This document shows, in pieces, positions 10,710-60,481 of a stretch of DNA of 64,000 nt (its first letter is position 1; each line of letters starts with the position of its first letter). Both the position numbers and the translations under genes were made by a program. Below the pieces are notes generated by a model, which worked only from the letters and a program-made list of their open reading frames with translations, did no database searches and was not told where the DNA came from. The stretch comes from Cyanidioschyzon merolae. Its lineage: Eukaryota. The stretch lies in the NCBI GenBank assembly GCA_000091205.1, contig AP006490.2. One strand, given 5' to 3'.

Positions 10710-11185
10710 GCAAGCTGTGGTCACCGTTCACGCCGACTGAATACCGCAACCCCATGCTTCAGTTGCGCTTCCCCGGTTCAAGTGTTAAGGTCGATAGGCC
10801 GTGGAGTGGTTGCGTTTTTATTGGCTCGGAATCTCCGCTGCAAGCAAGCTATTCAACTATTTGGCGCTGCGTCTGGTGTTTTTCTTGAAATGCCCAGTCT
10901 CGTACTCTACCCGTATGAGAATAAAACGGAACTGGTCCAGTAAGCAGAGTTGGGCATACGCTCGAGATTTTGAATGTGTGCCCGGCATGTTCAAAACAAG
11001 TCCATGCGGGATATTCTCTGACTGCATTCGTTACCCCGCTCGTCTCACAAGCTGTGCATACGTCGGTCTCTCATGTGCTTCCAGCTCCGTCGTCGTTATT
11101 GGAGTAAATCTGATGGCAGCGTTTTAGTTCGGACGTCGCTGCATCCGACTGTAGTCTATGCATTACACGCGCCAGCGGGCGTTGC

Positions 11186-11545
11186 GATCCACGCCTCATT
11201 TGCCATGCTCAGCTTCTTTATAGACAGTCCCGATGCAGTCGCCAAAGCGGTGACACTTGATTATGGTTAGCTGCGCTCACATGCTCACCATACAAGCCGT
11301 CTCTCAGCGAGCGGCCTCTGTGGCGCCTGAACGCTTACTCCATCACGCGGTAGATGTCGGTTTCTGGGTCAGAAGGCCCGCCTCGATGCTCGAATCTGTT
11401 TTTCGCTGCCAATGGCTTGCCCTCCGTCACGGGCTTCTTCGTTGCGATCCACTCGGCGAGTACTCTGTCCGTTGCACGCTCGTACACACACTGTCCTACT
11501 CGATAGAGGATTTCCAGGACATGGTGCTGTCGATGATGAAATAAG
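11186..11545 (+). repeat. Y-family repeat, 5'-truncated or diverged copy (Y3)
   Basis: Shares the left-end block 'tcatttgcca..cagcttc.tta.ag...gcggtgacacttg' with 20716-20790 and 58690-58750. It also shares the internal block encoding '...YSVRCTLVHTLSYSIEDFQDMVLSMMK', compare 'DYAVRCTWGHTLIRSTEDLWNAMLSIMK' in Y1. Confidence 0.55.
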
Positions 11546-12498
11546 TATCGAGTGGAAAATCCAGACTGGAGAACAAGTAGAGAAATCCTGATGCGTGTGC
11601 GCTCCCTTCGTGCAACGCAATGGTGCACGCTGCACTAGAAGCAATTGCTTCGACGAATTGAACCAAAGTCCAAGGCCTTTTCCCATGCAAGCTGAAGAGA
11701 CGGGAGCTTCTGCTTGCGTGTCGCGTGCCAGGCACCATGTTGCTGTCGAATGCCGTTTCCTAGAAAGTTCCAGTGAGAGAGAGGGGCGTGTTGGTATTTC
11801 CCACGGAATCGATTCCTCTAGTTGATAGCTTCAGCATACTTGTGGGATGCGCTTATGGACAAGTCGTCAAGGAATTACATCAAGTTTTGTTGCTCGTCGT
11901 ACCAGCAGCACGAATCGCCGCGCCGTCGACTTGCCCCGACACAGCAACATCAAAAACTTGAAGAATATGCGATTTGAGCGTCCCATACCCAAGGAAACGA
12001 GAAACGTGGAGGCTTGTACATATTCGTTGGACCACGATATCGACTACAATATGAATACTGGTTCGAGGGCATCCCCAATTATCTTGATTTCGGTGGCGTC
12101 TTCAATGCCATCAGCAGCGCCTCTAAGCAGCCACACCGAGAACACGACCGAGACTCCCGGAACGACGTATGAATCCGTAAGCCCATGGTGCTGCACTTTG
12201 ATGTCGAGCATCTATATTTTGAACAAGATCGAAAAAGTTTGAAATGATGGAACAGAACGAACAAGACAGTACCCTAAATTTACCGTACACGGATGTGCAA
12301 CACTCCTGCACCATGCGTGTGACGCCACGCAACGCCACGCGTGGCTACGCTACCCGCGACGCGCCAGCGAGGTTGCACGTGCTGTTGCAGCGGGCGCTTG
12401 CGTTGAGCGCGTTTCCCTCTTTTTCTTCAGCCGTTACTCTGCAAGTTTCTGTTCCGTGAACGTTTCCTTTTGAATCATTGGGCACTCTTGCGTTCGCC

Positions 12499-16110: not shown

Positions 16111-16289
16111 AGAAGCGTGGTTCATCCACCTTCTCACCATACAATGACTGCGTTGTGAGTATGCGCTGGTAGAGCCCGCGTTGCAGCTCGGGACCCCTGT
16201 GCTGAAGCGCAATTCCCTTTTCAGCAGGCGCTGCATACGGTCAGTATAAAAAGTCCCATGACTGTGGAGGATATGTTAATACACCCACT

Positions 16290-17410: not shown

Positions 17411-18682
17411 GGCTGTCATCGTCGCTTTTGCTTTCCGAAAAGTGATCAATGGGTCGTTTTCTAGCATTTGCCGCAAGCACTCTTTGAGAATACCGGTTTC
17501 TGGTGCGGATCGCATATATTTGTTTCTTTCAGTGTTCCTCAACCATCAGACGACTATGGTGTGACTAACCTGAAGGAGGAATGCAGCCATCCTTGCACTG
17601 TTCAGTAAAGATTCTATCCTACGGGCAACACGTCCACGCTCTGTACGGTACATTCCACTGGCATTTCGACCTCCTACTATACACCACTGCTGGTGTGGTA
17701 CAAAACTGAGTTCAAAGACCATAAGCGCCACAGTACAATGAGGCAACGCGAGGGATCGGGAACTGCGTTCCCGGCGCGTGGATCATTATTCTAAGTTCGC
17801 TTACGTTTCGAATGGCTGACGAGTATGGACGCTCTCGTAAACACTTTGGTCATTTCGGATACTCCGCAAGCAATCAAGGGAGAGCTCTATCGATGTTGTC
17901 CAACTTTTACGGTAACGAGTAACACCCCGATCAGGATGACGCTTCACTTGCTAGCGGTTGCAAATGGGTCCACGACGTCGCTACCAGAGCGGACCTCAAT
18001 GATTTTCTGGCTCGCCGGCGCGCCAGAAACGTTGGAACAACGTATGCTCAGTAATGCACCGCCGCGCATGCGTATTCTTGCTGGTAGGTGCTTCAGGCAT
18101 GGCGGTTCCGATCATGTTCGCCCGAGCTGTGACGCAAGCGCGTGCTCCTGATGCGGTAAATCTTCGGTCCATGAATCTATCCGGGATCAACAGATGTGTC
18201 GTGAAACGCTCTTCGGTAGCGAGGCCGGACCCAGCGAAGCATGCCGAGCGCCCAGGACGCTCTACTTGTCCAGACCAGTGCGGCCGCTGTTCCGCGGTTT
18301 GGATGTGAGAGCCCGGCCGGATCTTCCCCGCACAGCAGACAATCCATTCAGATCCACAGACGGTTTCGTGTAAGCACCGTGCGACGCGTGGAGCAGGCGA
18401 AAGCTCCCATCGACACCGATTCGTGGGTTGATCGTTGCGACGACGGCTCGTTTTTCAGAACGTCTGCTTGAGCGATCAGGCGAGAAGTGTCAGGGTCGGT
18501 GAGACGTGGTCTCGATCACGCTGAGGTCCCATACGCAGCGCATAGCATCTATTCCTGAATCCATCATCACATTACGGGGCATCGTCGCAGAGCTATAGGC
18601 ACCACGGTTCCGAGTTCAACACACATCTCTAAGCGTGCATAACAGGATCAATCCCAACAATACAGCGCACCTCTGCCAACTT

Positions 18683-19777
18683 CTAAGCTCCAGGGTTCAC
18701 GGAACTCGCGGCATTTGCGCGATCACCGCTGGGACGTGCCCATTCGACGGAGAGAATTAAGTGATCGTAACCGAAACCATTCAGTTTGGCGATGCAACGT
18801 TCCGCTGCTGAGCGTTCCGCGAACGCTGCGAACGCGAAACCCTTCGGCGCGCCGGTGTACTTATCGCGTGCCAGATAGATGCGCACAACTCGCCCAAATG
18901 GCTCAAGCAGCTGCCGCAAGTCATCTTCTGTGGCACCCTCCGTCAAGTTACTGATGCGGATGGAGTTTTCCTCGCGACGTCCATAGAGGGAATCTCCCTC
19001 ACGCAATCGCGCCGATGCTCCTGACCGCATCGATGGCGGCACATATCGAGTTGCACCGCTGCTCGTGGCACTCGCCGCCATGCTGCCGCCCGACCCTGCG
19101 CTGGGAGCCCCAACTGCCCCAGTCGCGCCGAGTATGCCATCTGGAGCTGTTGAGGCGGCGCTACCAGGAAGACCGAGTCCATCGGCGGCCCCTTGTAAGC
19201 CCTTATAGGGGCAACGAAGTGTCCAGTGATCACCAACGCGCCCACATATACGGCAAACTACAATAGACTTGTTGGTCATGAGGTCTTCGCCACTACCGCT
19301 TCCGCCGCCGCCGCCGCCGCTCGCCGAAGACGGTGCCGCACCCAAACTTGGCACCGCCTCGCCACTTTCCTCGTCATCGCTGACCTCGGTGTTACGCGTG
19401 TTCCACTCGATGGGAATGTCTTCGTTTGCCTGTGTGGTGGTGTTTGCGTTCTCGGTAGCGGCGACCCCAAACTTGCGCCAGCAGCGCCGCCGCTCTGCAA
19501 CTGCAGCGCACACCCGCCGTCGCTCAAGACGACGACGAACGCGCCGAGTCCGCTGAACAACGTATCCTTCGTCGTTGACGTAGTAATCCACGATCGTAAC
19601 AATGCCGTCTGCGTCGGGTTCGCTCACTCGTGGCGGTGGTAGGCCACCGCCGCCCTTATCGAGTTGCGTGGTAAGCGCGCGCCCCAGGGACGCGACCGCA
19701 TCGGGAGAGTCGTTTTCGGTCTCATCCCAAGCGTCCTCTGACGTCGTTGGCTCAACAGTTGCAACGCGTAAGCTCAT
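18683..19777 (-). CDS. Eukaryotic translation initiation factor 3 subunit G (eIF3g / TIF35-like): zinc knuckle plus C-terminal RRM
   Basis: ATG start at 19775-19777. 'CRICGRVGDHWTLRCPYK' is the eIF3g CCHC-type knuckle. The C-terminal RRM carries RNP-2 'IRISNL' and RNP-1 'KGFAFAAF'. A Gly/Ser-rich linker lies between them. Confidence 0.75.
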   Translation of the reverse strand: MSLRVATVEPTTSEDAWDETENDSPDAVASLGRALTTQLDKGGGGLPPPRVSEPDADGIVTIVDYYVNDEGYVVQRTRRVRRRLERRRVCAAVAERRRCWRKFGVAATENANTTTQANEDIPIEWNTRNTEVSDDEESGEAVPSLGAAPSSASGGGGGGSGSGEDLMTNKSIVVCRICGRVGDHWTLRCPYKGLQGAADGLGLPGSAASTAPDGILGATGAVGAPSAGSGGSMAASATSSGATRYVPPSMRSGASARLREGDSLYGRREENSIRISNLTEGATEDDLRQLLEPFGRVVRIYLARDKYTGAPKGFAFAAFAERSAAERCIAKLNGFGYDHLILSVEWARPSGDRANAASSVNPGA

Positions 19778-19929
19778 CTGGGGAGTTCCTCGCGTCTGTC
19801 CGCGGCGAAAAATACCAGGCGTGCACGCCGTAAGCTAAGCGCTAGCAGGTACGCTTGCAAGCGGCGGATGCGCGTGTCGCGGCGTGGCTGCCGGTGATTT
19901 TCTTTCGATGGAAAAATATCTCTATGAAC

Positions 19930-20165
19930 CATGGATCCCAGATTGCGTGATGGATATTTGCATACGGGAATGTTTCGTTTATGCTGCTATCTACCTTCAA
20001 GTTCCATTACCTATACTTCCTCTCGGATGTGCTGGTCGTTTCGTACGTTCTATCGTGCGCCCAGTACCTGCCTTGAGCGCTCACAATAACGCCTATAGCG
20101 CAAGTGCGGATGCTGCTCAGAGACAGAACGGGTTTGTCATGCCCGTTTGGGCGTCGGATGCAGGT
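19930..20165 (+). repeat. Dispersed ~245-bp repeat family, copy 2
   Basis: See 3711-3958. Confidence 0.6.
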
Positions 20166-20715
20166 CAGGATATGGACCTGTTTCCATGACAAGTGCAGCT
20201 GCCTTCTCGTGGCATTATCGCAGGAACGGAGAATCTCCCGTACACATCCCGATGCGAATGATTTCCATCGTGCACTGCCGCTGCAGATTAAACGTGTCAA
20301 CGAAAGCGCGAACATTTGCTTCAACTCCTCAAACGTTGCACCAGTGAAAGACCGAGCCTGCTTATCACACATGCAATGGAAACCGGGCTGGCTCTGTCAA
20401 ACAGATATGAGCTTCGCCCGCTGTACCTCTTTGCGAACAAAATGGAAGGGGCGCCCACCGAACGAACTCGGGCATACATACTCAAGTTTGGGTCTCTTCC
20501 CCATGCCATCAACACCAGCAAATTCGGGCGTTTTCTCCGACTGCTCTCTTTGCCCCTCTTATCTCCGTCTCTGAAGATGCACATCCCTACGGTGCCTCTG
20601 GCTCTGTTGTCAGCAGTCGAAGGATGTTGATGGCAGCGTTCAGGTGCCAATTTCGCCGCTCGCGGCTGGTGTCGACGCGTCTGATCCGCCGATGGAAGTT
20701 GCGAACTACACGTCA

Positions 20716-21800
20716 TTTGCCACTTTCAGCTTCGTTACATAGAGCCTCGGTGCGCATTTCGCAGCGGTGACACTTGGATGTGGTCGGTTGTTCCTATGGG
20801 TCCACGGTGCCTCCTGTTTCTCCGTAGGTCGCTATGTGTCCCGTGAACGCTTGCTTCGTCGATTGGTATATGCCCTTGACGTCTACCCAGGGCTCTGGTT
20901 GATGTTAAATCCGCTTCTGCACCTGGTGCCGATGCTACGGACCCTGGCTTCTTCTGGGCCACTTGGTCGGCGATTACGCTGTCCGCTGCACATGGGGGCA
21001 CACGCTGATCCGCTCAACAGAGGATCTGTGGAACGCGATGCTGTCCATTATGAAACAGGTGCCGGAAAGAGACCCCAGCCAGGAGCTCAAGCCGCAAAGT
21101 ATCGATCCGTCTATGCATCCTCCGTGCATAGCGATTGCGCACGCTCTACTGGAGGCGGTCGCTGCGAGGACTGAATTCCGAGTCCGAGACCTTTTCTCCA
21201 TCCACACAATAGAGACGGGAGCCTCTGCGAGTATATCCGATGAGAGGAACCGCGCTGCTGGTGTCGAATGCAACAATGTCGATGACCGCAAGCAGAGTAG
21301 GATATGTCTCCAGAACGGAATCGAATATTCGACGTGAGAAGCTACGGGATATGTCTGCAGAAGCTTGTGCCGTCGTCGCCACGGGAGGACGCCAAGTTGT
21401 TTGCGCTGGAAATCTGGCGGCGCGCGTTGCCGCACTCCACGGATTGCCCTGAAACAGAACGATCGAGGCTTTGAAGAATGCGTGATTCTCGTAAACTAGA
21501 CGTAGGAGAAAGGAGTGGCGTAGAGGCTTCTGGGTGTCATCTGGATCCTGATATCTGGTATTTCACGCGACCTTGTTTGATGGCGTCGCGAAACATCTTG
21601 ATTCCGGTGACGTTACCAAATCCAGCGGCCAAGCGTGGAAGGAGCCACTCGGAAAACACGACCTAAAATCCTTAAACTACCTACGAATTCGTACATCCTT
21701 ATCGGTTCACTTGGAATATCGAGGCTGTACCAATAAAAAATTTCGGAAAAGAATCGAACTGCAAGAACAGAGTGAGCAATGTAGCGTTCCATTTCAATCT
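20716..21800 (+). repeat. Y-family repeat, full-length copy Y1 (~1085 bp). Positions 20915-21800 form the left arm of an inverted repeat.
   Basis: The left end 'tcatttgccactttcagcttcgttacatagagcc...gcagcggtgacacttgg' matches Y3 and Y5. The right end '...caatgtagcgttccatttcaatctgac' matches Y5's '...cagagtcccattttaacctgaac'. Positions 20915-21800 are the reverse complement of 23218-24085 at about 97-98% identity. The identical peptides 'MRDSRKLDVGERSG...' at 21478..21666 (plus) and 23348..23536 (minus) show this, as do 20974..21435 (minus) versus 23474..24040 (plus). Confidence 0.85.
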
Positions 21801-22283
21801 GACATAGATATATCGTCCCAGGCGCCGAGCACTACGAGAGCGATGCAATCGAAGGCTGCTCACGGGCACGCGATCCATCGTATCCCTCAGATTTCGACTC
21901 GATGCAAGGCATCTCAGCGTGAACAACAGCGCCCGTGCCTCGGGGGCGCTGTTTCCGATCGGCGTGATGCGCACCACGATTTTGGGAGCGCCGCCCCAAA
22001 AGAAGTTGCAAACGCCGCCACCAACATCGGGATTGGGGCGAGCGCCGTCGCAGGAACACCACAAATGCGCCTCTGCGCGCATTTCACCATCATCTAGATC
22101 GCCAGATTTGGATGCTTTACTAAACCGGAGATCAGAGCATAGACACCGAAGCGCAGTGGACATGATCGTAATAAATAAATCTGCATTGTCGCTTTCCGCA
22201 GAGAAAACGAACAAGCTTCTCAGCGTCACCACGCGGTCTTCATTGCGCAAACGAACGTAACGAGCCTCGTGTATAAAGTAGAA

Positions 22284-22955
22284 ATGGCGGTCTCCAGGGT
22301 GCTTATTGTGGCTTGCCTGACCTTTCTAGCAGCGTTTGCATCGCTTGCTCAGGCATATGAATACAAGCAGCAGTGCCAGGTAGAGCAGGTGTGTGCGCAA
22401 TATGTGAACCAATGCCAGCAGTATGAGAATGTATGCCTTCAGCCATATCAGAAGTGCAAGCAGTACGAGCAGATTTGCGTGCAGCAGCAGCAGCAGTGCA
22501 AGAACTATCAGACTGTGGAGAAGCCAGTGAAGGTCTGTGTCCAATACGAGAAGGAATGCATCCAGTTTGCATACAAGGAGCAGTGCAAGCAGCAGGAGCA
22601 GGTGGTTCAGCAGCAGTACTGGTATCGTCGCTGGTACAAGCAGGAAGTGCCGGTGAAGCAGGTGTGTCAGAAGCAGCAGTACTGCGTCCAGTATCAGGAG
22701 AACAAAAACAAATGTGCGCAATATGGAACACAGTACCAGAAGATTCAGGAGTGCGTGCAGTACGAGAACCAATGCGTCCAATATGGACAAGGCAAGTGTC
22801 TTCAGTATGAACAGGCTTGTCAGCAGTACGGGCAGAAGTGCGCGAACTATCAGCAAGTGTGCAAACAGTACCAAAAGGTGCTCGTCTGCAAGAAATATCA
22901 GCAGGAATACAAGAAGCAGTATCAGCAGCAGTACTACGCGCAGGGATACTACTGA
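22284..22955 (+). CDS. Secreted cysteine/glutamine/tyrosine-rich tandem-repeat protein (novel; signal peptide plus about 20 'C-x-Q-Y-x-x-x-C'-like units)
   Basis: ORF 22269..22955 has a GTG start; the first ATG at 22284 gives 'MAVSRVLIVACLTFLAAFASLAQA|YEYKQQ...', a signal-peptide-like N-terminus with an AXA cleavage context. The mature part is repeats such as 'CAQYVNQCQQYENVCLQPYQKCKQYEQICVQQQQQCKNYQ...CVQYENQCVQYGQGKCLQYEQACQQYGQKCANYQQVCKQYQ', with about 24 Cys and almost only Q, Y, K, E, V and C. No hydrophobic segment follows the signal peptide. It lies in the 1.4-kb spacer between the inverted Y arms. A TATAAA sits at 22273-22278. Confidence 0.6.
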   Translation: MAVSRVLIVACLTFLAAFASLAQAYEYKQQCQVEQVCAQYVNQCQQYENVCLQPYQKCKQYEQICVQQQQQCKNYQTVEKPVKVCVQYEKECIQFAYKEQCKQQEQVVQQQYWYRRWYKQEVPVKQVCQKQQYCVQYQENKNKCAQYGTQYQKIQECVQYENQCVQYGQGKCLQYEQACQQYGQKCANYQQVCKQYQKVLVCKKYQQEYKKQYQQQYYAQGYY

Positions 22956-23217
22956 AGGAGCTTTGCGATGGACGTGGTGGCTGGTCATCTCTATGTGAGC
23001 GGACAGAGGACAGAGTCCGCGGAGTGACGTGGGAGTGCTAATGGACAGTATATCTGATGGAAGTGTACAAGGACGTTCATTGTAGTGCCTTGAACAATTA
23101 TAAATTCTGAATTTCGTCATCATTTCAAAGCGCCCTTGTCTGAGTTGCCATCTGCTGCCCTGGCCCGTGGATTGTCGCATCGCTTTCATGGCGCGTCTGC
23201 TTCTCTGTGACGTCAGA

Positions 23218-24130
23218 TTGAAATGGAACGCTACATTGCTCACTCTGTTCTTGCAGTTCGATTCTTTTCCGAAATTTTTATTGGTACAGCCTCGATATTC
23301 CAAGTGAACCGATAAGGATGTACGAATTCGTAGGTAGTTTAAGGATTTTAGGTCGTGTTTTCCGAGTGGCTCCTTCCACGCTTGGCCGCTGGATTTGGTA
23401 ACGTCACCGGAATCAAGATGTTTCGCGACGCCATCAAACAAGGTCGCGTGAAATACCAGATATCAGGATCCAGATGACACCCAGAAGCCTCTACGCCACT
23501 CCTTTCTCCTACGTCTGGTTTACGAGAATCACGCATTCTTCAAAGCCTCGATCGTTCTGTTTCAGGGCAATCCGTGGGGTCCGGCAACGCGCGCCGCCAG
23601 ATTTCCAGCGCAAACAACTTGGCGTCCTCCCGTGGCGACGACGGCACAAGCTTCTGCAGACATATCCCGGAGCTTCTCATGTCGAATATTCGATTCCGTT
23701 CTGGAGACATATCCTACTCTGCTTGCGGTCATCGACATTGTTGCATTCGACACCAGCAGCGCGGTTCCTCTCATCGGATATACTCGCAGAGGCTCCCGTC
23801 TCTATTGTGTGGATGGAGAAAAGGCCTTGGACTCGGAATTCAGTCCTCGCAGCGACCGCCTCCAGTAGAGCGTGCGCAATCGCTATGCACGGAGGATGCA
23901 TAGACGGATCGATACTTTGCGACTTGAGCTCCTGGCTCGGGTCTCTTTCCGGCACCTGTGTCATAATGGACAGCATCGCGTTCCACAGATCCTCTGTTGA
24001 GCGGATCAGCGTGTGCTCCCATGTGCAGCGGGCAGCGTAATCGCCGACCAAGTGGCCCAGAAGAAGCCAGGGTCCATAGCATCGGCACCAGGTGCAGAAA
24101 CAAACTCGACATTCTTGCACAAAGCGCACA
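23218..24130 (-). repeat. Y-family repeat copy Y2 (inverted relative to Y1); right arm of the inverted repeat
   Basis: It is the reverse complement of 20915-21800. The inner boundary '...ctgtgacgtc|agattgaaatggaac' mirrors Y1's end 'gttccatttcaatctgac'. Homology to the first 200 bp of Y1 beyond 24085 is weak and diverged. Confidence 0.8.
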
Positions 24131-24594
24131 CCTCGTAGCGTTCAACCCCTGGCGCATTGGATCGATGCGTGCGCCGAAAGCGCTTGTCACGCTCGAATTT
24201 GATGTCACAGGAAACGGCAGCGTTCCGGAGCCGAAATCGGCGCAGCAGCGCGCAGACGCGCGCGCGCCATCACTGCCTATGCGATCTGCGCGCCGACTAC
24301 GATGTCCCAGCAGTTTCGGCGCGCAAAAGCGCTTTCTTGGCTTTGGGCGGTGGGTACTCAAGCCAAACCAGCCGCGCGAGGGTCTACGGAAACGCCGGTG
24401 GTGTTGTGTGTGTGTGCAGGGCTTTCGTGCTCGCTCATTTTCCAACTGAACTTGGCTCAATTACGTGTAGTGTACAAAGTTATCTAGGATTCGATCGTGC
24501 GGGAGTGCTTTCAGAGTTTCACGAACACGCAGCTCTTCGGCGGAGCAGCCAAAGCCATTCAAGTGCTGTCGGAATATCGTGAAGCTTTTACCGG

Positions 24595-27393
24595 ATGAGT
24601 GCTTGTCTGAGCCGCGCTGATCCCCCGAAAACGGACGAGAAGCCGGCACAGACACCGCCTCGTCTCCTGGCAGTACAGGCGGTGCTCGATAGTCGATCCT
24701 GCTTCTCGGAAACTGCCAGCGCCCGCGTTCATCTGGAGCTACAACCGTGTGCGCTGGCGCCTAGCGAATCGGTTGCGTGCCTTCCGTCGCTTTTTCCATG
24801 CACGATGGACCAGTCCGAGGAAGCCCCGCTTCCGGGTCGGCGCTTCATCTTGCAGGGTGACTGGGCGCTGTCGCCGATCACCCCTGCCGTTCGACAGCCG
24901 CCCATGGAGCGTCGAGCGCCCGGCACCATGCTGCCGGAGGGCTTTAGTGAGGCGGCGACCAGCACCCACGGCATGAGCATGGGAACTTACTACTCGATGA
25001 GATTGGGTTCACCCGTTCCACGTGGAGGGCGGATGCGGACGACACGCCCGTGGCCTGGGATGGCGCTGAGTCCCGCACACGGCTACGCCTTGCAAACCCT
25101 AGCTCCAAGCTCAGCGTTGCTTGATGAATACAGGCGCCAGGCACTGGGGCTGAATACTGAGCCCCACTCTGAGCAGGACGTCATTGATACTGACCCATTT
25201 TCACCAAGCGATGCCGATTTGGCCATGGAAGCCGGTGTTTCCGTCACACCGATGCGTCCAGGCGCGAGTTCACCGCCGATGTCGAGCCCAGTGTACGCCG
25301 GCGTTGGCCTAGCGTTTGCGGTCGATGGAGGATCTCCTGCACTGGGGCCCGGGTCATGTGTAGGCGCGTTCGGGGCCGGAGTGATGACAGGCTGTTCCCT
25401 CATGCAGCCAGCCGCCTGGTCGAATAGTGCAGCAGCGCTGACGCCACTCACCGCACGCCTGCGGGAACAGTCCAGAGTCGCGGCGGATCTCGATCCGGAT
25501 TTCGCTCAGGTTGCCCTGGCTACCAACGACCAACGTTTGCGTATCAAACGATATCGGCAGATCTACGGCGGTATTCAGTCACCAACTACATCGGCAGCTG
25601 GGGTATCACAACCTGATCCACGCGTGTCGTTGAACGTGCCTTTGGAATCTAGTCAGGTCGTCTCGAAAGCAACGCACGCGCAGCGCATAGCAACGGGCAT
25701 TTCCGTTCCGAGCGCCACCTCCGGCTGCTGGGATCCTGATTTCGCTGCAAAGAAGCAACAAGCGGATCCATATGTTAGGCCCCTATCTTGCGAGTCTGCG
25801 CGACCTCCGCGAGAATGCAGTCAGGCGACTACCTCCACCTCGATCGCTAATGCATACTGTCGATTCGAGCACCCCGTTTACTTGGACGCAACGGACTTGA
25901 ACGATGAGGATGCTACCCATTCAGAGGCTTTCAACGAAAGCAACGAGAACATTCGCCTGGAGGCTAGCTTCAGCAGTGAGACCCCAGCGGGTGCCCTGCA
26001 GACGTCGTCTACCCGTGACGAGATGCACAGCCGCGCGCATCTATCCGCTCATGCCGCTGGTGATATGGGTCCTCCTTATGGTATCCCTGTACTGCAAGTA
26101 CTTCAGGAGCGCCAGTTGCCGAACTACATAGAGACAGCGCACGGCAACGAATCGATGCATTCACGCGACCCGAGCCTTCACCAGCAACCAAAAGGATCAT
26201 CAAATCGAAAACGTTCGCGGCACGAAACAGACCCTATGGCGTACCAAGCGGGTACGAGGCATCCTGATGGAGGGTATTGCCCCAGTAGGCCATACTGCTC
26301 GATGCAGAAGACGGAATCGGCCCACACATCAGCATCATCCTCATCGGATGACCTGGTCATGTCGCAGAACACATCCAAAACGCTATCACAGGATCGTTCG
26401 TGTGTACGCTGTTTCGAATCCGGCCTCGAGCGGAAACGCGTTCTCTTCGCCGTACACCCAACCGGTGTCGATGAACGCTCCCTGCCGTCGACCTCGATAG
26501 CAACAGACACAGTGCGAGAAAACCGTCAGTCTTTATTTCCCTCGCCCCATGAAGTACAAGACGGGCACTTTGCGCCTACCGAGGATAACGGTATGCGACC
26601 GTTGCCTTTTGCGGCGAGCGGCAGCGAACGGAGCGCTCTTGCGCCGCCGCCGGTCTCTGTACCCGACGCTAGAGTCATATGTCCCGCATACGAGTCCGTT
26701 TCAGCAGCGCAGTCGCTCGCTTCAGCCGACCAGCATTGCCTCGATCACCATCGAGATACTTTCAGCATCAATCAAACAATCAACTGCTGGTCAAGCGGCA
26801 GAACACGCTATGCACCGGAACCACAGACCCACGCGATGGTGTCCCTCGACGGAACCCAAGCCGAGCATACCGTGGACCCCTATCTACCCTCAGAGGTGCA
26901 TCCTGGAGCTACTGCTAGTGCTGCTGCGCTGGTGCTTGACCCAGCCGCAGCTGCTGAGCTACAACGAGCATCCCGTCGGTTACAAACACCTCGCACCAAC
27001 ACGTTACGAATCGCATCCAAGCGGTGTCGTTGCCGTCGTTCCCGATGTCTCAAGAAATATTGCGACTGTTTCGCCGCAGGTAGTTTCTGCGGCCCTGAGT
27101 GCGAGTGTGAGGGCTGCGGCAACCATCAAGACAACCAGGAACAGGTCGAACGGGCTCGTCAAAGTGCGTCGCAGCGCTCGAGTACCTCCGGTGAGGCACT
27201 AAACGGTGAACCCAGTGCCTCGGAGCGTTCGTCACGAGGCTGTCGCTGCAAGCGCACCGGATGTCTGAAGCGATACTGCGAGTGTTTCCAGGCCGGACGG
27301 GAGTGTACGGCACAGTGCGCCTGTGAAGGCTGTCTGAACTGTCGCGGGCTCAGTGAACACTTGCTGGTTGAAATTCGACGGCGGCTTGCTTGA
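24595..27393 (+). CDS. Tesmin/TSO1-like CXC (CRC) domain protein, LIN54-like (DREAM-complex DNA-binding subunit homolog)
   Basis: ATG at 24595. Two CXC modules are present: 'CRCRRSRCLKKYCDCFAAGSFCGPECECEGCGN' and 'CRCKRTGCLKRYCECFQAGRECTAQCACEGC'. They are separated by a short linker near the C-terminus, and the long N-terminus is low-complexity, S/P/A-rich. Confidence 0.7.
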   Translation: MSACLSRADPPKTDEKPAQTPPRLLAVQAVLDSRSCFSETASARVHLELQPCALAPSESVACLPSLFPCTMDQSEEAPLPGRRFILQGDWALSPITPAVRQPPMERRAPGTMLPEGFSEAATSTHGMSMGTYYSMRLGSPVPRGGRMRTTRPWPGMALSPAHGYALQTLAPSSALLDEYRRQALGLNTEPHSEQDVIDTDPFSPSDADLAMEAGVSVTPMRPGASSPPMSSPVYAGVGLAFAVDGGSPALGPGSCVGAFGAGVMTGCSLMQPAAWSNSAAALTPLTARLREQSRVAADLDPDFAQVALATNDQRLRIKRYRQIYGGIQSPTTSAAGVSQPDPRVSLNVPLESSQVVSKATHAQRIATGISVPSATSGCWDPDFAAKKQQADPYVRPLSCESARPPRECSQATTSTSIANAYCRFEHPVYLDATDLNDEDATHSEAFNESNENIRLEASFSSETPAGALQTSSTRDEMHSRAHLSAHAAGDMGPPYGIPVLQVLQERQLPNYIETAHGNESMHSRDPSLHQQPKGSSNRKRSRHETDPMAYQAGTRHPDGGYCPSRPYCSMQKTESAHTSASSSSDDLVMSQNTSKTLSQDRSCVRCFESGLERKRVLFAVHPTGVDERSLPSTSIATDTVRENRQSLFPSPHEVQDGHFAPTEDNGMRPLPFAASGSERSALAPPPVSVPDARVICPAYESVSAAQSLASADQHCLDHHRDTFSINQTINCWSSGRTRYAPEPQTHAMVSLDGTQAEHTVDPYLPSEVHPGATASAAALVLDPAAAAELQRASRRLQTPRTNTLRIASKRCRCRRSRCLKKYCDCFAAGSFCGPECECEGCGNHQDNQEQVERARQSASQRSSTSGEALNGEPSASERSSRGCRCKRTGCLKRYCECFQAGRECTAQCACEGCLNCRGLSEHLLVEIRRRLA

Positions 27394-29704: not shown

Positions 29705-29945
29705 CTATGGATCCTAGATGGCGGGATGGATATTGGCATTCGGGAATCACGCATCAGGCTGCACCCTACCTTCAAGCTCCATTTCCCGTACTTTCCTTGA
29801 ATGTGCTGATCGTTACGTTCATTCTATCTTACGCCAACTGCCTACCGTGAGCACCTGCAATAATGCCGAAACAGCTGATGCGTAGGCGGCATGGAGACAG
29901 AACGGTTTGTCACACCGCTGGGGGCGTTGGCTCGAGGCATGGTTC
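29705..29945 (+). repeat. Dispersed ~245-bp repeat family, copy 3
   Basis: See 3711-3958. Confidence 0.6.
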
Positions 29946-47506: not shown

Positions 47507-48749
47507 AGATACAACGACTCGTACGAGGAAGGATGTGCTCGTGGATTACTTGCGACGAAACACGGAGTTCAGCGTGCTCGCTCTCAGCCTGAACTAGCAC
47601 TCTCCGCGTGTTTCCGCGGCGCTAAAACAATGCTCCAGACTAACGACTGATCATAATCATTATCAACCAGACGGCAATCCTTCGAACCGAACAGCGACAA
47701 AGTCGTTGACGCTCCAACAGGTCCTGGGAACGGCAGCAACTGCCGAGTGCTTTGCGCGACTTTGGAAGGCGCGACGCGTTCACAGAAACCGGCGCTGTAG
47801 CGTGCACCCCTCGCTCCAAGAAGAAAGTGTCAACTGCGACGCCTGGTTTGTGCGCAACCTTTTCGAGGTTCTGCACCACGAAAGAGTGCGTCTTATGCTG
47901 TTCAGAGGAAACTAGTTGCAGCAGCAGCCGCGGCAGTCGTCGGACGACAGGGTTTACAAAAAAGACGGAACTGCGACTTGTGTGCGACGCCCGCTGCCGC
48001 TCCGGTGGTGCTCAGAAAGTCGATGCGCGAGGTTGGTTCACGACGCTGCGGGGTCTGCAGGTGCTAGGCGATCTCGTATGCCGAAGAGCACCACGTCGGA
48101 TAGTAGTGCTGTCTCCAGCTGGCTCTCGCGTGGTTACCGACACACCAAGCCACTTTTTTAACGGATATGGTGTAGGCACCAGGTGACAGCGTAAACACTC
48201 GTTCGTTTGAACAGGAACACCAGCAGCACAGCTGCGCTGTGCTGTCAGGGAACCCAAGTTCCGCTCCCGTGGTGGTGCTTATCTTCATAGGTTTCCGACA
48301 CCCGTGTCAGTTAGAAATGGACCGCTGGACTACTCGCTGTGTGCCTGGTTTTCGATCTTGCGAATCTTTACTAGATATACAAGCACGACATTCACAGTGC
48401 GGCAATAATGGTATAGGAATTCATAGCTAGTTCTTCAGGATTCTTGGTCATGGTTTCCGAATGGGTTCTTCGACGTTTTGTTGCAGGAATTGCTCACGTT
48501 ACCGAAAACACGATGATTCGCGACGCCATCCAACAAGGTCTCTGACCATGATCGATATCATGATCCAATGTAAAGGTACAAGTCACAATTCTTCTCTTTT
48601 TCTCATGTGCAGTATGCTCGAATCACGCATGCCTCAACTCGTCGATGTTTGCGATACAAGGCAACTCGTAGGCACAGCAATTTGCACCGCTCGACTGACG
48701 CACGGGAAAAGCAATCGACTTCGCCCGGTGACGATTTATTCACAAGCTC

Positions 48750-49100
48750 AGGCCGAAAGTTCACTGTAATCGCCACGTTCGATGATCGATTCGGTTCGGA
48801 ATACGAATCCTCCAGTCTTTATGGCCATCGAGCGAGCCGCATTCGAGAGCAGCAGCGTGATGCCTCTCACGGAATGTGCTCCCAGAGGCTTCCGTGTCTT
48901 CTGTTTGCATAGAAAGTGAGGCCCTGTGCTCGGACTTGCGTCATCGCAGCGAACACGTCCGGTAGAGTGCGTAGCGCCGCTTTGCATGCAGGAAGCATAG
49001 ACGGATTCAAAATTATCGACTTGTTCTCCAGCCTTGACTTTCCTTTCGGTCCGTGCCACATTATCAACAACATCGCATTCCATAAATCCATGATCAAATG
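48750..49100 (-). repeat. Y-family repeat fragment (Y4)
   Basis: The reverse complement of 48870-49100 aligns to Y1 21030-21160. Compare 'gatttatggaatgcgatgttgttgataatg...aatccgtctatgcttcctgcatgc' with 'gatctgtggaacgcgatgctgtccattatg...gatccgtctatgcatcctccgtgc'. The ORF 48748..49215 peptide 'ITLLLSNAARSMAI' matches Y5's 'VTLLLSNAVSSMAT'. Confidence 0.5.
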
Positions 49101-50389
49101 GAATTACTGGTGCTTGCTTGTGTAGAAGATCCCGAACTAGCCGAGAGGTTATGCCCCAGCGAAGATCGCCATCGTCAGGGACGGCACCAAGCGCGAAAAC
49201 GGAAAAGGGCATCATGTGAAGCCTGATCTACCTCTTGAAGGGCATGGACAGAGCGGTGAAGCAAACGATCATGCGCTGCTAGGTAGCATTCGAAAGAGAA
49301 GATGTGGTCGAAGTCTTGGAACACTTGACCGCAGTCACATGTAACCGTTGCAAAGGGCGCAACGAAGCTTTTTACAAACAAGATCGACATAGCCCAGGAT
49401 GCGCGTAGATTGCAACTGGCGCATGTACAAGACCTGCGTTGGCAACAGCCGGGACTTACGAACTCTGGACTTGCACACTGCGAGCAGCATTCTGCGACTG
49501 CTGACGACGGAGCATGAGCGAGGTGAAAACCCAGCGTATTGAAAGCTGAGCATAAGAGAGAGGAGGCGGAAAGCGTCGCGGAAGCAAGGCCTGCAAAGCT
49601 TGTGTTGATGAAACTTGGAAAATGCCCAAGCATGCGCCTGCACGCCAGTCTCAGCAGAGTGCACCATTAGCATTTCATTCTGAATCCAGCGTACGGCATC
49701 CCGCAGCGCGTTAGCGCTCGTTGCACATGGCGATGAATGACGGCCATCGCTGTTCATTGTCAAAAGACTAGATCCGCGCGCTGCGTCGCAACCAGTCGGT
49801 CCCTGGGCCGCACCTATGGTGCGACGATGCATACCCTGAGCTTTCAGTGCACACAGATAGGCTCTAGATCCCCGCACGGTATCGGTGATGGATAAGCAGC
49901 GACGCAAAACGCTCGGAATACGAAGGATGAAGCTTTGCCTGCCTCGCATTCCAAATACTTCCCATCATGTGGACGCAGTTGAGCGTTTTTTGGACAGCGA
50001 CCAACGTCACCAGGAACCCGGTATGCTGTAGAACTGAGTGTGAGCAGGGTGCATTACGTGTCAGCTACCTGCGATGTTCAGACCGCGTGAGAGCCGTCCA
50101 GAGCAGCGCACCTGCGTATCGTACGATACTCGTTGCCGATCCCAAATGCTATGCAAATGCTGTAGATATGAAGCATGCGGTTCACTTCCATAGCGACATG
50201 TCGTATGGAAAAAGATGACGTCTGCACGCTGGTTTTTCCTCATATACTGCAGTGCCCTCAAATCGTTCACCTTGCACAAAGGCGTACCGATCTGAACGCC
50301 CCAGGCGAGCAGATCGAGCTCGACGCTGCCCAGCAGCTAATGATTCCCGTTTCAGACATGGTTCGCATTCCGCTGAAGCGGGTGTGTGG

Positions 50390-55190: not shown

Positions 55191-56670
55191 GCGCATTTCG
55201 TCTTTTTTCCACACGTCCTTCTCTGTCCATGCAGGTTCTCACCTTAGTGCATCAAGAAGTGTGTTCGTTTTGAAGAAATACAATATCCAAGAGATTAGCT
55301 GGGGTGTACACTCCAGAAGGTCGAGATAGAGAGTGGCCAGCGAAGCGCTTCGGCGATAGAAAAGCACGAAGAGGTGGCAGAGCAGCAAACGGCACAGAGA
55401 GAACCTGTTCGAGGAATCTTTGCATTAGTGCGTCCAACCAGAGGCAATCAACGTACGGAGTTCGTGGACCAAGACTTCAACGCCGTCATCCATATCAAAC
55501 GATGCGTGGTGCGGATGACGAGATTCGCGGACCTGATACGATCCAACTTTATGGGCCAGCCGCTCAGGCTCAACGTGTACAAAGAGAAATTGGAATCGAT
55601 AGCAGGGGTCCGGTCTTTAACGACTGGGAGGCGTCTGCACGTCGGTATTCATTTACCCTCCATAACTGTGAAACATTTAGTGTTTCACTGACTCTACAGA
55701 AGACGGCAATGGACTTGGGCCTGTGTCCCCTTAAGGATCGATTGCATTGAAGCATGGGTCTCCGCTTTGCACCAAGGCGACATAGACTGATAGAAATATC
55801 TGGATGAGTTCCCAATCTTTGGTTTTTTCGGGTACTTATCGCATCATGGACAACATCGCGCACCGCAAATCCTCGATTCACTGGAACAGTGAGCGCTTGC
55901 GTGTGCAGCTGACAACGCACTCGCATACGGGATTGTACAGAAGAAGCGCGCCATAGCACGGTGCGACACCGGCGAAGTAGATTGCATCTATCCCTCTGGA
56001 CCCTTCAACGGCATATACCAAGCTATAAACCAAGCGTTTTCGTGCTACAGGGCGACACTGGAATTACGCAATGTGGTAGACGCATAGGAACATCTCATGA
56101 GAGTCAGGTGTCACGGTTGCGAAGCGCTCAGCGAGGCTGTGTACCTAGAACTTGAAACAGGCCTGCGAAGCGTAGGTCGCAACTCTCGCATCTGCACGGA
56201 ATGCACCAACGACTGGCAGAAGCGGTGAAATCGGGACCCGGACACTGCTATCCACAGCCTTTCGACAACGAGCAACGGAACTGGAGGGAAGGAATACCCC
56301 AATACATATAAAAACGTAGATGAAACAGTGGAAAAAGAGACCAGTTGAAGAAAAAGCTCCCAATGACTGGTATTGATGATCGTAGGAAAACCCGTAAACA
56401 CTGGAGTGTATGCCGCAGTCAGCAAAACGGACCCTTTCCAGGGTCGTCTGACATGACAGCATCTGGAGAATCCACGAATGCGCAGCTGCAGCAGAGGCAA
56501 CGGCAGCGGCAGCAGCGGATGGGCGTGCTCTTCACCAAAATCACGCAGCGGCGCGCTTTTCCGGCAGCGCGCTCGAAGCCGCGATGGTGAGAACAAGATT
56601 CACACAGGAACTGCCGCGGAACACAGGAACCAGACGAGTATTTGTTGCGTGACTTGTTCGACAGAAGCCC

Positions 56671-57939: not shown

Positions 57940-58689
57940 GTGCATTTCGCTGCCGACACCGACCCGTCACCACCCTTCCATGGACCGTTTCGATTGCGAG
58001 TAGTGGAGAGCACCTGTTTCATCAATACAGCAGCGGTTACCTTGTCGAGATGTACCAGACCTGCAATAGATCAGTTTGCGAGCAGGCAACTCGGATCATT
58101 TATCAATCTACCTCTGTGAACGGAACTCTGAGGTGAATATTTGAGAGCACCTGCTCGGTTATTCGTTGCGAACACACGGGCTCAGTTTCGCGACGCTACC
58201 AGGCGCGTCGGCACGAACGCACCAGCAGCCACTGGTGCTGCGAGTCGCTGGAACGGGTGCAATTGCCGTTATTCAATAACCATAAACGAATGCCAAGCGT
58301 TTCAGGATCCACGCAAGGAGCTTTCCCTAGAGCAACGCATGTTGTACATGAAAACCGGAAATATAAGCGCTCCCTTTGGACCATGGTCTTCATTTTACTC
58401 GTGCTAGACTAGATCGGGACATGTCCGATACCTCGGGCCTATGATCTCGTATTGGGGTCTCTTGTTATTGTCATCAAAACTGGCCTTTTGGGGCTTTTTC
58501 TGTGACTGCTTCCGTTTTCACGATCTCTTAGCTCCGGATTTCTAAACGCAGGTCACTCCTGTCGCATTAGGTCCGCAATCTCTAACCAACGGGTGTTGAA
58601 GGCAGTTGTCAAGTCCCGATTACGCCACTTCAGGCTACCATCAACGCTTTTTTAACGCACGTGGAGGGTATAGTTGGGATCTCTGAACC

Positions 58690-59775
58690 GCTTGCCATTT
58701 CCTTTTTCTCTGGATACAGCGTCAAAGCGCCTTTCGCAGCGGTGACACGTGACCGTGTTCAGATGTTCCCGCATATCCATTGTAGCTCCGGCTTCGGTCG
58801 CCGTCCTGTGGCGCGTCAACGCTTGCTTCATCGTTCTGCGAATGCGCTTGACGAGTACGGAACGCAACCCTGGATGACCTGTTTCGTTTCCGCGCCCGAT
58901 ACCGTGCCCGAGAATCATCGGGGTCTGCTGGGCGAGCCTATCGCCGCGTACGCTACCCGCTGCACACGCTAGTGTATGCAGTTCGATTCGATTCAGGATT
59001 TGTGGGACGTGATGTTGTTCACAATGAAATCTGTACTAGGAAGAGAACTCCGGCTGGAGCATTCGTCTGGAAATTTCGATACGTCTACGCAATCTATTCG
59101 CGCACAACGGCAACGAACTCTCCACTGAAAACAAACCCTACAATGACGAAAACCGTGGCCCCAAATCCTTCTCCTCGGCAACAACAGAAGAGGTGGGAGC
59201 CTCTGGGGACGTGTCCCCGGACAGGTGTCACGTTACTGCTGTCGAATGCAGTTTCGTCGATGGCCACAAATCAGAAGAGGATTTGTCTTCTGAACGAGGT
59301 CGATAATTATTTGATTCGAGAATTTTTGTGAACTTTCGGCATGAGCTCGTAAAAAAGACGTCAAGCATTTCTACTCGTCAATGCAGTGGCTTGAATTGCC
59401 GCACCCACCAGTTGCCTTGGAAGAGAAACATTGAAATCCTGAAAAATGCATGATTTGAGCACACTACGCCAAAGACAAGGAGAAGAGCCGAGGATTCCGC
59501 ATGTGAATAGGATGACGATGTCTGCTGTTTTATGAACAGCTATTCGAGGGCGTCACGAATCATCCTCTTTCTGCTGAAGCAACGATATCCAGCGGCAAAG
59601 CGTCTTAGGGGCCAACCCGAACGCACAACCGAGAATCCTAAAATACTCATGAATCCGTAGGCCCTTGTTCCTGCTATTCGAACATCGAGGCTGTGCATGA
59701 AAAAAAAAACTACGCAAAAGAATCGAAAGACATGAAAACAGCGATCCGTTCAGAGTCCCATTTTAACCTGAACCC
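58690..59775 (+). repeat. Y-family repeat, full-length diverged copy Y5 (~1085 bp)
   Basis: Three blocks match Y1. The left-end block is '...cctttcgcagcggtgacacgtga'. The internal blocks 58940-59060 match 20960-21060 and 59200-59330 match 21240-21330. The right-end block 59630-59775 matches 21660-21800, including 'catcgaggctgt.ca..aaaaaaa...gaaaagaatcgaa'. Confidence 0.6.
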
Positions 59776-60481
59776 AGTTTTGTGCACCCAATATTCAAGA
59801 GGATCACGATCTCTTCCGACGATTGATGAGCTGCCTCTCCGGGACAGCATGCTTGCATACGAAAGCACGGAAATGTACACATATTCATATTTTCATGCGC
59901 GTGCATACACACGATGAATCCACCGCCCTCTCCGCAAACCTAGTACAGACAGCACGACATTTGACCTGGTGCATTTTGCCTTCGACGAAGAGACCGCTGG
60001 AGCTTACCGGGGCATTCTAGACTCCCGTAGCGCACGGCGTCTGATGCACCCGAGTTCTCAACAACGGGTCGGTGCGATCAAGACCTTGTTCCTTTTGGCA
60101 CGTTCCAGATACCGCATGCTCTGAAAACACGGTATGATGCGCCTGTAAAAACGAGGGAGCCAGTTGGCTGCACGACGCTGCCGATGCATATAACAGCGCT
60201 CCGCAAAAATTATCTTTCGGGACAGTAGATCTTTGGCTGGCGACGGAGCCAACGCTATACGCAGATAAGCGCCGCATCGCAGCGCTCCGTCCACCGCAGG
60301 CTCTATCCATTGCAGAGTGTTCCGCGCCGTGTCTTCCGAGCCACAGAGTCTGTCCAGAAGCGTCTCTGAGCACAGATCATACGTCTGCGATATGCGGGTG
60401 CAGCAGCACGGCAACGATACCAGTGCAGCCGTGTCGCACTTCACAGCTAGAAACGTCAAGTATCCCATCTACTGCCGCTCT

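What the first reader, a model, noticed from the sequence alone, without database searches (positions are those of the whole stretch)
20716..24130. ~885-bp inverted repeats (Y-family elements) flank a 1.4-kb spacer with a single secreted Cys/Gln/Tyr-rich protein gene: a composite, transposon-like or invertible cassette
Left arm 20915-21800 and right arm 23218-24085 are reverse complements at about 97-98% identity. The arms are two copies of the ~1.1-kb Y repeat that also occurs at three other places in the window. The unique spacer contains one gene, 22284..22955. This architecture resembles a composite transposon or a foldback-type mobile cassette. It would also allow inversion of the spacer by recombination between the arms. 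Both arms carry an identical ORF start ('MFDGVAKHLDSGDVTKSSGQAWKEPLGKHDLKSLNY...', TTG-initiated) that reads from the arm into the spacer. That is consistent with outward-reading transcription from the Y element.
Basis: seen in the sequence. Interest (0 to 1): 0.65.

Follow-up and report, generated by a model that had tools for sequence, protein, structure and literature searches.

The report
Inverted repeat pair around a small gene
[quoted passage not shown] The copies appear to be kept alike by recombination, which could also flip the gene, but nothing shows that the unit is a transposon or a genetic switch.

Summary
The window is C. merolae 10D chromosome 8. Arms 20915-21803 and 23212-24099 are reverse complements (889 bp, 98.4%) around a 1408-bp unique spacer. 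The spacer holds one credible gene, 22284-22955, for a secreted protein with cysteines every 7 residues.

The arms belong to a non-coding dispersed repeat family, Y (about 1.2-1.3 kb, roughly 60-66% identity among four other copies in the window). The inner edge of the repeat is the family's shared 3' end. The right arm is a 5'-truncated copy.

Environmental Cyanidioschyzon contigs carry the same structure at the same site. The same polymorphisms segregate on both arms within 20-38 bp of the unique flanks. I read this as arm-to-arm gene conversion.

Contigs that cross an arm link the flanks to either spacer end (9 inverted, 4 as in the reference). One contig is an impossible hairpin path, so short-read assemblies cannot settle orientation.

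I found no transposase, no target-site duplication, no empty site and no recombinase. Inversion leaves the gene's surroundings unchanged for 889 bp on each side.

Verdict: an ordinary recombination-prone inverted repeat. It is not a composite transposon, and a switch function is unsupported. The TTG-initiated ORFs are artefacts.

The parts
18683..19777 (-). Left neighbour: eIF3 subunit G gene, transcribed away from the cassette
   Evidence: Pfam eIF3g + RRM_1. The exact sequence equals BAM79827 of C. merolae 10D.
20462..20914 (+). 5' part of the left Y copy, outside the inverted repeat. It has family-level homology only. From about 20606 it is near-identical to a Y copy outside the window.
   Evidence: Homology of 20500-20914 to four other Y copies. 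Five Logan contigs stop at 20635, and L073 joins a foreign flank at about 20606. No shared 20-mer elsewhere in the window.
20915..21803 (+). Left arm of the inverted repeat (3' 889 bp of Y copy 1)
   Evidence: 98.4% reverse-complement match to 23212-24099. It ends at the Y family 3' terminus ...CCATTTCAAyCTGAC.
21804..23211 (.). Unique 1408-bp spacer. Its two ends are called spA (21804) and spB (23211) in this report.
   Evidence: No other copy in the window and no internal palindrome. No Rfam match in 19800-24600.
22284..22955 (+). Gene for a 223-aa secreted-type protein rich in Gln/Cys/Tyr, with cysteines spaced 7 residues apart and an internal two-fold repeat
   Evidence: ATG ORF. Homologues of 39-46% identity with a similar layout and invariant cysteines in related cyanidiophytes. 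The CDS has 0-2 differences per 672 bp among environmental variants, against about 6 per 736 bp in the rest of the spacer. No Pfam or PDB match.
23212..24099 (-). Right arm: a 5'-truncated Y copy in inverted orientation
   Evidence: There is no Y-family homology in 24100-24650, whereas the left copy's outer flank has it.
24595..27393 (+). Right neighbour: Tesmin/TSO1-like CXC-domain protein gene, transcribed away from the cassette
   Evidence: Pfam TCR. The exact sequence equals BAM79829.
11111..12250 (+). Old Y copy (Y2)
   Evidence: 63-72% blastn matches to Y1. It shares the 3' terminus.
48305..49629 (-). Old Y copy (Y4)
   Evidence: 66.8% over 800 bp to both arms. It shares the 3' terminus.
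55756..56400 (-). Old partial Y copy (Y5, 5' part only)
   Evidence: 65% match to 20616-21068.
58650..59780 (+). Old Y copy (Y3)
   Evidence: 63-66% matches to Y1. It shares the 3' terminus.

Best explanation
Two copies of an old, non-coding dispersed repeat (Y) sit in opposite orientation on either side of a 1.4-kb unique segment. The left copy is full length and the right copy is 5'-truncated. The segment carries a genuine gene for a lineage-specific secreted cysteine-rich protein.

Because C. merolae recombines homologous DNA readily, the 889 bp that the two copies share are kept nearly identical by gene conversion between the arms. The same recombination can resolve as a crossover and invert the spacer.

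The near-identity ends exactly where homology ends: at the Y terminus on the inside and at the truncation point on the outside.

Inversion swaps only which diverging neighbour (eIF3g or the CXC-domain gene) the small gene points towards. The gene keeps its own 480-bp upstream and 256-bp downstream sequence and reads into the same arm sequence in either orientation. Flipping is therefore most likely a neutral structural polymorphism, not a switch.

Shown: the anatomy, the non-coding nature of Y, the truncation, gene conservation, and polymorphisms shared between arms.

Inferred: gene conversion as the cause, crossover inversion, and neutrality.
For: - Arm identity is 98.4%, against about 60-66% between Y copies elsewhere.
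- The inner boundary coincides with the 3' terminus shared by five Y copies.
- The outer boundary is sharp. Y homology continues only on the left side.
- Y shows no preferred reading frame, no codon periodicity, no Pfam hit and no Rfam hit.
- The structure is present at the same site in all environmental Cyanidioschyzon contigs, which are about 99% identical to 10D.
- At sites 20-38 bp from the unique flanks, where k-mers phase them, the polymorphisms at 20934 (G/C) and 20952 (T/C) segregate on both arms. 20938T is seen only on the right arm and 20943G only on the left.
- In three samples both arms carry the same outer haplotype, whereas in 10D they differ (sample identities).
- Flank-to-spacer linkage of both kinds is seen from both sides.
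- High recombination rates in C. merolae are noted in PMC13062707.
Against: - Orientation evidence comes only from short-read assemblies across an 889-bp repeat. In 10D that repeat has an identical stretch of 237 bp.
- One contig (L075) carries the same flank at both ends, which shows arbitrary graph traversal.
- The linkage counts are skewed towards one spacer end (spB) on both sides. That fits assembler bias better than one fixed state or a clean mixture.
- Metagenomes mix strains, so arms from the same sample need not come from one genome.
- The arms differ by 1.6% and the strains by about 1%. A single duplication somewhat older than the strain split could give similar raw numbers.
Confidence: 0.6

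Rival explanations
1. A single, fairly recent inverted duplication or insertion of the last 889 bp of Y, with no continuing exchange and a fixed orientation. On this reading, the mixed linkages and shared alleles in metagenome contigs are artefacts of assembly and strain mixing.
For: Arm divergence (1.6%) is of the same order as strain divergence (about 1%). L075 shows that assemblers traverse this repeat arbitrarily. Arm alleles in contigs are mosaics of the kind bubble-popping produces.
Against: Alleles 20-38 bp from the unique flank cannot be mis-phased by k-mers of 55 or more, yet 20934 and 20952 are polymorphic on both arms. The copy's boundary falls exactly at the Y family terminus, which is unexpected for a random segmental duplication.
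Confidence: 0.2
2. A mobile cassette: a composite or foldback-like transposon in which two Y elements carry the small gene between them.
For: Y is a dispersed family with a defined 3' end and a 5'-truncated member. Another near-identical Y copy seems to exist outside the window. A 437-bp, 99.5% identical fragment of the gene lies next to a guanylate kinase gene in one environmental contig. The homologues in a related species lie in a different gene neighbourhood.
Against: The arms are unequal. Y has no transposase or other domain and no terminal inverted repeats, and the arms have no tandem sub-repeats. No target-site duplication is visible at the junctions. A look-up of one exact 70-aa Y ORF found it only at this locus. 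There is no empty site and no second full copy among about 70 fetched contigs.
Confidence: 0.05
3. A programmed invertible switch that changes expression of the secreted-protein gene or of its neighbours, for example in connection with the wall-less and walled cell forms.
For: Both flank-spacer linkages occur in environmental assemblies. The cargo is a surface- or secreted-type protein, the kind of gene that phase variation usually controls. Close Yellowstone relatives of the wall-less 10D are cell-walled (PMC13062707).
Against: No recombinase is encoded in or beside the cassette. By symmetry, the sequence context of the gene is unchanged by inversion for 889 bp on each side, and both neighbours are transcribed away from the cassette. 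The related species has the gene family without such a repeat.
Confidence: 0.05

Closest known systems
Inversion polymorphisms between long inverted repeats homogenised by gene conversion: the human FLNA-EMD region, sex-chromosome palindromes, and plastid inverted-repeat flip-flop (recalled from general knowledge, not tested here)
   Same: The arms are long and nearly identical, far more alike than related copies elsewhere. They flank a unique spacer, share polymorphisms, and need no dedicated recombinase. Both flank-to-spacer linkages are seen in the population, though that evidence is not conclusive.
   Different: This case is much smaller (0.9-kb arms, 1.4-kb spacer). The arms derive from a dispersed repeat rather than a segmental duplication. 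The inversion itself is not yet demonstrated with long reads.
The 253-copy interspersed repetitive element of C. merolae ('WSV repeats', about 3.2 kb; Nozaki et al. 2007, PMC1955436)
   Same: It is a dispersed repeat family of the same genome with no known function and is reported as transcribed. The whole unit 20606-24099 is about 3.5 kb, close to the reported mean size.
   Different: That element is defined by a truncated ORF weakly similar to WSSV wsv486. No conserved ORF exists in Y. I had neither the wsv486 sequence nor the genome annotation, so identity is untested. Y is about five times denser in this window than 253 copies per 16.5 Mb would predict.
Composite transposons and foldback elements
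   Same: Inverted copies of a repeat flank a cargo gene.
   Different: There is no transposase, the arms are unequal and lack tandem sub-repeats, and Y has no terminal repeats. No target-site duplication was seen and there is no evidence that the unit has moved.
Site-specific invertible switches: Hin/Gin/Fim in bacteria, FLP/FRT of the yeast 2-micron plasmid, and flip-flop mating-type switching in Ogataea yeasts (general knowledge)
   Same: An inverted repeat flanks a gene-bearing segment that may flip.
   Different: No recombinase is present. No promoter or silencing boundary would be separated from the gene by flipping, and the local context is symmetric.

Membership tests
Inverted-repeat-mediated inversion locus with concerted evolution of the arms | Long inverted arms of very high identity around a unique spacer | tested here: met
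   889 bp at 98.4% identity, with a unique 1408-bp spacer.
Inverted-repeat-mediated inversion locus with concerted evolution of the arms | Arms more alike than expected from their age, with polymorphisms shared between them | tested here: met
   Other Y copies are about 60-66% identical. Sites 20934 and 20952, which lie 20-38 bp from the unique flanks, are polymorphic on both arms. The outer haplotype is identical on both arms in three samples but differs in 10D. Caveat: the samples are strain mixtures.
Inverted-repeat-mediated inversion locus with concerted evolution of the arms | Both orientations of the spacer exist in the population or in a clone | tested here: inconclusive
   Nine contigs give the inverted linkage and four the reference linkage, seen from both sides. 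L075 is an impossible hairpin path, and short reads cannot phase across 889 bp.
Composite transposon | Arms are complete mobile elements with a transposase or their own terminal repeats | tested here: not met
   No Pfam domain in any arm ORF. No conserved frame. No terminal inverted repeats in Y. The right arm is truncated.
Composite transposon | Target-site duplication flanking the unit, plus copies or empty sites elsewhere | tested here: not met
   The junction sequences read show no direct repeat. Every contig has the unit at the same site. Elsewhere there is only a 437-bp gene fragment. The full 10D genome was not available to search.
Foldback element | Symmetric long terminal inverted repeats built of tandem sub-repeats | tested here: not met
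   TRF finds no arrays in the arms. The left copy extends beyond the repeat and the right copy does not.
Site-specific invertible switch | A dedicated recombinase encoded in or next to the segment | tested here: not met
   No recombinase domain in the ORFs of 19000-26000. The neighbours are eIF3g and a CXC-domain protein.
Site-specific invertible switch | Orientation changes which promoter or gene is connected | tested here: not met
   Direct reading of the sequence: the gene keeps its own flanks and reads into identical arm sequence either way, and both neighbours point outward. Expression itself was not testable.
C. merolae 'WSV' interspersed repetitive element (Nozaki 2007) | A truncated ORF weakly similar to WSSV wsv486, about 3.2 kb, about 253 copies | not testable with these tools
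   Neither the wsv486 sequence nor the 10D annotation and genome were available. The description comes from PMC1955436.
Non-autonomous retroposon (SINE/LINE-tail type) | Shared 3' end with variable 5' truncation | tested here: met
   Five copies end at the same motif. The right arm lacks the 5' part.
Non-autonomous retroposon (SINE/LINE-tail type) | Poly(A) or simple-repeat tail and target-site duplications | tested here: not met
   The 3' end is ...CAATCTGAC followed by unrelated sequence with no tail. No flanking direct repeats were seen.

The most novel reading that the evidence does not exclude
The cassette is a true nuclear flip-flop. On this reading, recombination between the arms reversibly inverts the gene for a surface or secreted cysteine-rich protein at appreciable frequency. 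Orientation then affects expression of that gene or of its neighbours through longer-range effects such as read-through, chromatin or replication direction. This would give cell-to-cell heterogeneity, possibly linked to the wall-less and walled forms of Cyanidioschyzon.
Probability: 0.06. Interest if true: 0.7.

Novelty: new member of a known kind. Interest (0 to 1): 0.33.

Why it matters
C. merolae is used as the simplest, repeat-poor model genome and as a chassis for genome engineering, so locus-level recombination behaviour is of practical interest.

- The locus would be a natural reporter of intrachromosomal recombination (conversion versus crossover) in that organism.
- It shows that a non-coding repeat family covers roughly 8-9% of this window. 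Whether that family is annotated in 10D could not be checked here.
- It exposes a conserved gene for a secreted protein whose product I could not find among the deposited 10D proteins.
- It is also a caution for metagenome assemblies of these algae, which traverse the repeat arbitrarily.

None of this changes current understanding of how genomes work.

Tried and rejected
- Coding potential of Y. I ran six-frame tblastn between copies and a codon-phase test on a five-copy alignment. No frame stands out, so Y is treated as non-coding.
- Pfam on all arm, spacer and antisense ORFs, PDB sequence search and Rfam: nothing found.
- The TTG ORFs. The 371-aa one found only one JGI-called antisense ORF, so it is rejected as a gene.
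- A conserved inverted repeat around homologues in a related cyanidiophyte. L012 and L014 have three clustered paralogues but no long inverted repeat, only a 58-nt, 78% pair.
- Other sites of the young Y. An exact look-up of a 62-aa arm ORF found nothing. A 70-aa ORF was found only at this locus.
- More spanning contigs. Look-ups of further eIF3g variants gave no new arm-crossing contigs. The metagenome scan gave only three loci, one of them an artefact.
- Structure of the protein. The AlphaFold model had mean pLDDT 64 and pTM 0.27. That is too weak for a fold search, so none was run.
- Locus tags in the literature only suggested that gyrB is CMH166C. I could not establish what BAM79828, the accession numerically between the two neighbours, encodes. 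Exact look-ups of six candidate ORFs failed.
- The first exact look-up of the gene product used a start three bases too early. It was repeated correctly.
Full report
**Identity of the window.** Exact-sequence look-ups place the window on chromosome 8 (739,753 bp) of Cyanidioschyzon merolae 10D. The ORF 18683-19777 (-) is eIF3 subunit G (BAM79827). The ORF 56671-57939 is CMH172C. The ORF 60482-61558 is a mitochondrial carrier. The ORF 24595-27393 is a CXC-domain protein (BAM79829). Pfam hits on the large ORFs fit a plastid-bearing eukaryote with almost no introns: gyrase B, photolyase, YceD, cyclin and lipase. ORF lists made with the bacterial code therefore over-call TTG and GTG starts.

**The observation.** The inverted repeat is real. 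Gapped alignment gives 20915-21803 against 24099-23212, 889 columns at 98.4% identity. The 14 differences are at 20938, 20982, 20997, 21054, 21076, 21092, 21186, 21189, 21334, 21344, 21433, 21436 and 21497, plus a 1-nt indel at 21735. The longest identical stretch is 237 bp. Identity collapses immediately outside 20915/24099 and inside 21803/23212. The 1408-bp spacer is unique in the window and has no palindromic remnant. Independent assemblies break exactly at the arm edges.

**What the arms are.**
- Four further copies of the same family (Y) lie at about 11111-12250 (+), 48305-49629 (-), 55756-56400 (-, partial) and 58650-59780 (+). Their blastn pieces are 63-72% identical to the arms.
- A five-copy alignment shows a uniform 50-70% identity along about 1.3 kb.
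- All six reading frames are equally conserved between copies, and mismatches show no three-base periodicity.
- No arm ORF has a Pfam domain, and nothing matches Rfam.
- The arms have no tandem sub-repeats, and Y has no terminal inverted repeats. Y is therefore a non-coding dispersed repeat.
- All five copies that reach the 3' end stop at the same motif...CCATTTCAAyCTGAC. Beyond it the sequences are unrelated. The inner edge of the inverted repeat is therefore the family's true 3' terminus.
- On the outside, the left copy continues to share family homology for at least 300-450 bp (20462-20914). The sequence beyond the right arm (24100-24650) shares none. The right arm is a 5'-truncated Y copy.
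- Nozaki et al. 2007 reported 253 copies of an unexplained 3.2-kb interspersed element defined by a truncated wsv486-like ORF (PMC1955436). I could not test whether Y is part of it.

**The gene.**
- 22284-22955 encodes 223 aa with an N-terminal hydrophobic leader ending in AQA. That it is a signal peptide is my inference and was not tool-tested.
- The protein is rich in Gln, Cys and Tyr and has an internal two-fold repeat.
- An exhaustive HMMER search of 1.84 billion representatives found only 11 relatives. The word-indexed search found one, P0030.
- The credible relatives are 39-46% identical and have a leader. About twenty cysteines are invariant, and those in the first block are spaced 7 residues apart.
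- In a related cyanidiophyte contig, three paralogues cluster within 10 kb next to unrelated genes, with no long inverted repeat.
- Among environmental variants, the CDS differs at 0-2 of 672 sites, against about 6 of 736 sites in the rest of the spacer. This suggests purifying selection, though the counts are small.
- There are no Pfam or PDB relatives. The AlphaFold model is weak, with pLDDT 64.
- Neither this product nor its antisense ORF was found under an NCBI accession. The gene may be unannotated in 10D. The identity of BAM79828 remains unresolved.
- The two 'MFDGVAKHL' ORFs start at TTG, have no homologues, and one is simply the antisense frame of the CAG-rich gene. They are artefacts.

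**Comparative evidence.** Look-ups of eIF3g and CXC-protein variants fetched about 70 environmental contigs that are about 99% identical to the window. They probably come from acidic hot-spring communities such as those described in PMC11662350, but I did not verify the sample origins. All contigs that reach the locus have Y and the repeat at the same position. No empty site was seen.

**Concerted evolution.** Sites within 20-38 bp of the unique flanks are phased by any k-mer of 55 or more.
- 20934 (G/C) and 20952 (T/C) are polymorphic on both the eIF3g-side and the CXC-side arm.
- 20938T occurs only on the CXC side, and 20943G only on the eIF3g side.
- In samples 3300050357, 3300050358 and 3300050360, both arms carry the same eight-site outer haplotype. 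In 10D the arms differ at three of those sites (samples).
- Polymorphisms shared between paralogous arms are what gene conversion predicts. Strain mixing in metagenomes weakens the same-genome argument, but it does not weaken the shared polymorphism itself.

**Orientation.**
- Contigs that cross a whole arm link the eIF3g flank to the 23211 end of the spacer (spB) in L002, L003, L004, L007, L009, L073 and L077. This linkage is inverted relative to 10D. Only L072 links the eIF3g flank to the 21804 end (spA), as in 10D.
- The CXC flank is linked to spA in L015 and L016 (inverted) and to spB in L031, L038 and L069 (as in 10D).
- Both linkages therefore occur from both sides.
- L075 carries the CXC flank at both ends, which is impossible for a real molecule.
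- The counts favour spB on both sides, as an assembler bias would.
- I therefore treat inversion polymorphism as suggested but not shown. The finished Sanger reference gives one orientation for 10D.

**Mechanism.** The simplest account has two steps.
- Two Y insertions in opposite orientation came to flank the gene. The second was truncated at its 5' end.
- Recombination between them has since homogenised exactly the shared 889 bp and can invert the spacer. High recombination in this alga is noted in PMC13062707.

By symmetry, inversion leaves the gene's own 480-bp upstream and 256-bp downstream sequence unchanged, and also the first 889 bp beyond them. Both neighbours are transcribed outward. 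A regulatory effect is therefore unlikely.

**Against mobility.** The arms are unequal. There is no transposase, no terminal repeats and no visible target-site duplication. There is no second full unit.

**Hints of activity in the family.**
- Five Logan contigs stop at 20635. L073 joins the flank of another gene (P0058, with no NCBI record) to Y at about 20606. That sequence is unique within the window. This implies another near-identical Y copy elsewhere in the genome.
- One contig carries a 437-bp, 99.5% identical fragment of the gene (22618-23054) directly after a guanylate kinase gene.

These hints keep a small probability on the mobile-element reading.

**Verdict.** The finding is real and correctly described. 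It is best filed as a recombination-prone inverted repeat formed by a dispersed non-coding repeat around a lineage-specific secreted-protein gene. The transposon and outward-reading-ORF interpretations are not supported. Invertibility is plausible and testable with long reads or PCR.

Noticed in passing
window 4866-5942 and 13998-15074: A second young repeat pair, this time direct: 1077 bp at 98.9% identity, 9.1 kb apart. It encloses a class-3 lipase gene, another ORF and Y copy Y2. Several metagenome contigs end at about 15119, just past its edge.
   Followed up: partly
window 16265-17684 and 54314-55662: A diverged inverted pair of another repeat family (about 70% over 1.4 kb). No reading frame is preferentially conserved. 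The right copy abuts the partial Y copy Y5.
   Followed up: partly
window 3703-3956, 19921-20171, 29704-29930: A third small dispersed family of about 250 bp (66-73% identity). One copy lies just upstream of eIF3g, next to the left Y copy.
   Followed up: no
window 55756-56400 (-) and 58650-59780 (+): Two old Y copies also flank CMH172C (YceD-like) in inverted orientation, with their 5' ends facing the gene. They are not homogenised. Inverted Y pairs are therefore not unique to the finding, and Y orientation in the window looks random.
   Followed up: partly
L074:1217-1653 (JGI 3300050748): A 437-bp, 99.5% identical copy of the 3' half of the cysteine-rich gene plus 99 bp downstream (window 22618-23054). 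It has no start codon, is preceded by an A10 run, and lies about 40 bp after a guanylate kinase gene. A diverged Y fragment lies about 1 kb away.
   Followed up: partly
window about 20606-20635; L073:1-1150; L006, L044, L045, L047, L048: Five Logan contigs from different runs all stop at 20635. L073 joins a different gene's downstream region to Y at about 20606, where identity jumps from about 65% to about 99%. This points to another near-identical Y copy outside the window, or to a structural variant.
   Followed up: partly
L075 (JGI Ga0207433_10076873): This contig consists of CXC-side flank, arm, spacer, arm and the same CXC-side flank again (47 bp at each end). It is a hairpin-path assembly artefact and shows that short-read assemblers traverse this repeat arbitrarily.
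   Followed up: yes
window 22284-22955: The 223-aa product was not found under any NCBI accession in three different look-ups. Environmental variants differ by A219P. The gene may be missing from the 10D protein set. BAM79828, numerically between the two neighbours, could not be identified.
   Followed up: partly
L012:426-1532 (-), 7729-8901 (+), 10001-10672 (+): A related cyanidiophyte has three clustered paralogues of the cysteine-rich protein. One carries a long Gln/Ala/Pro-rich insert. The neighbouring genes differ from those in the window: signal peptidase, globin and NifU.
   Followed up: partly
L073:1-525 (protein P0058): This 198-aa protein is found on 53 environmental contigs and is 70% identical to a Cyanidiococcus yangmingshanensis protein. 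No C. merolae 10D entry appeared among the hits.
   Followed up: no
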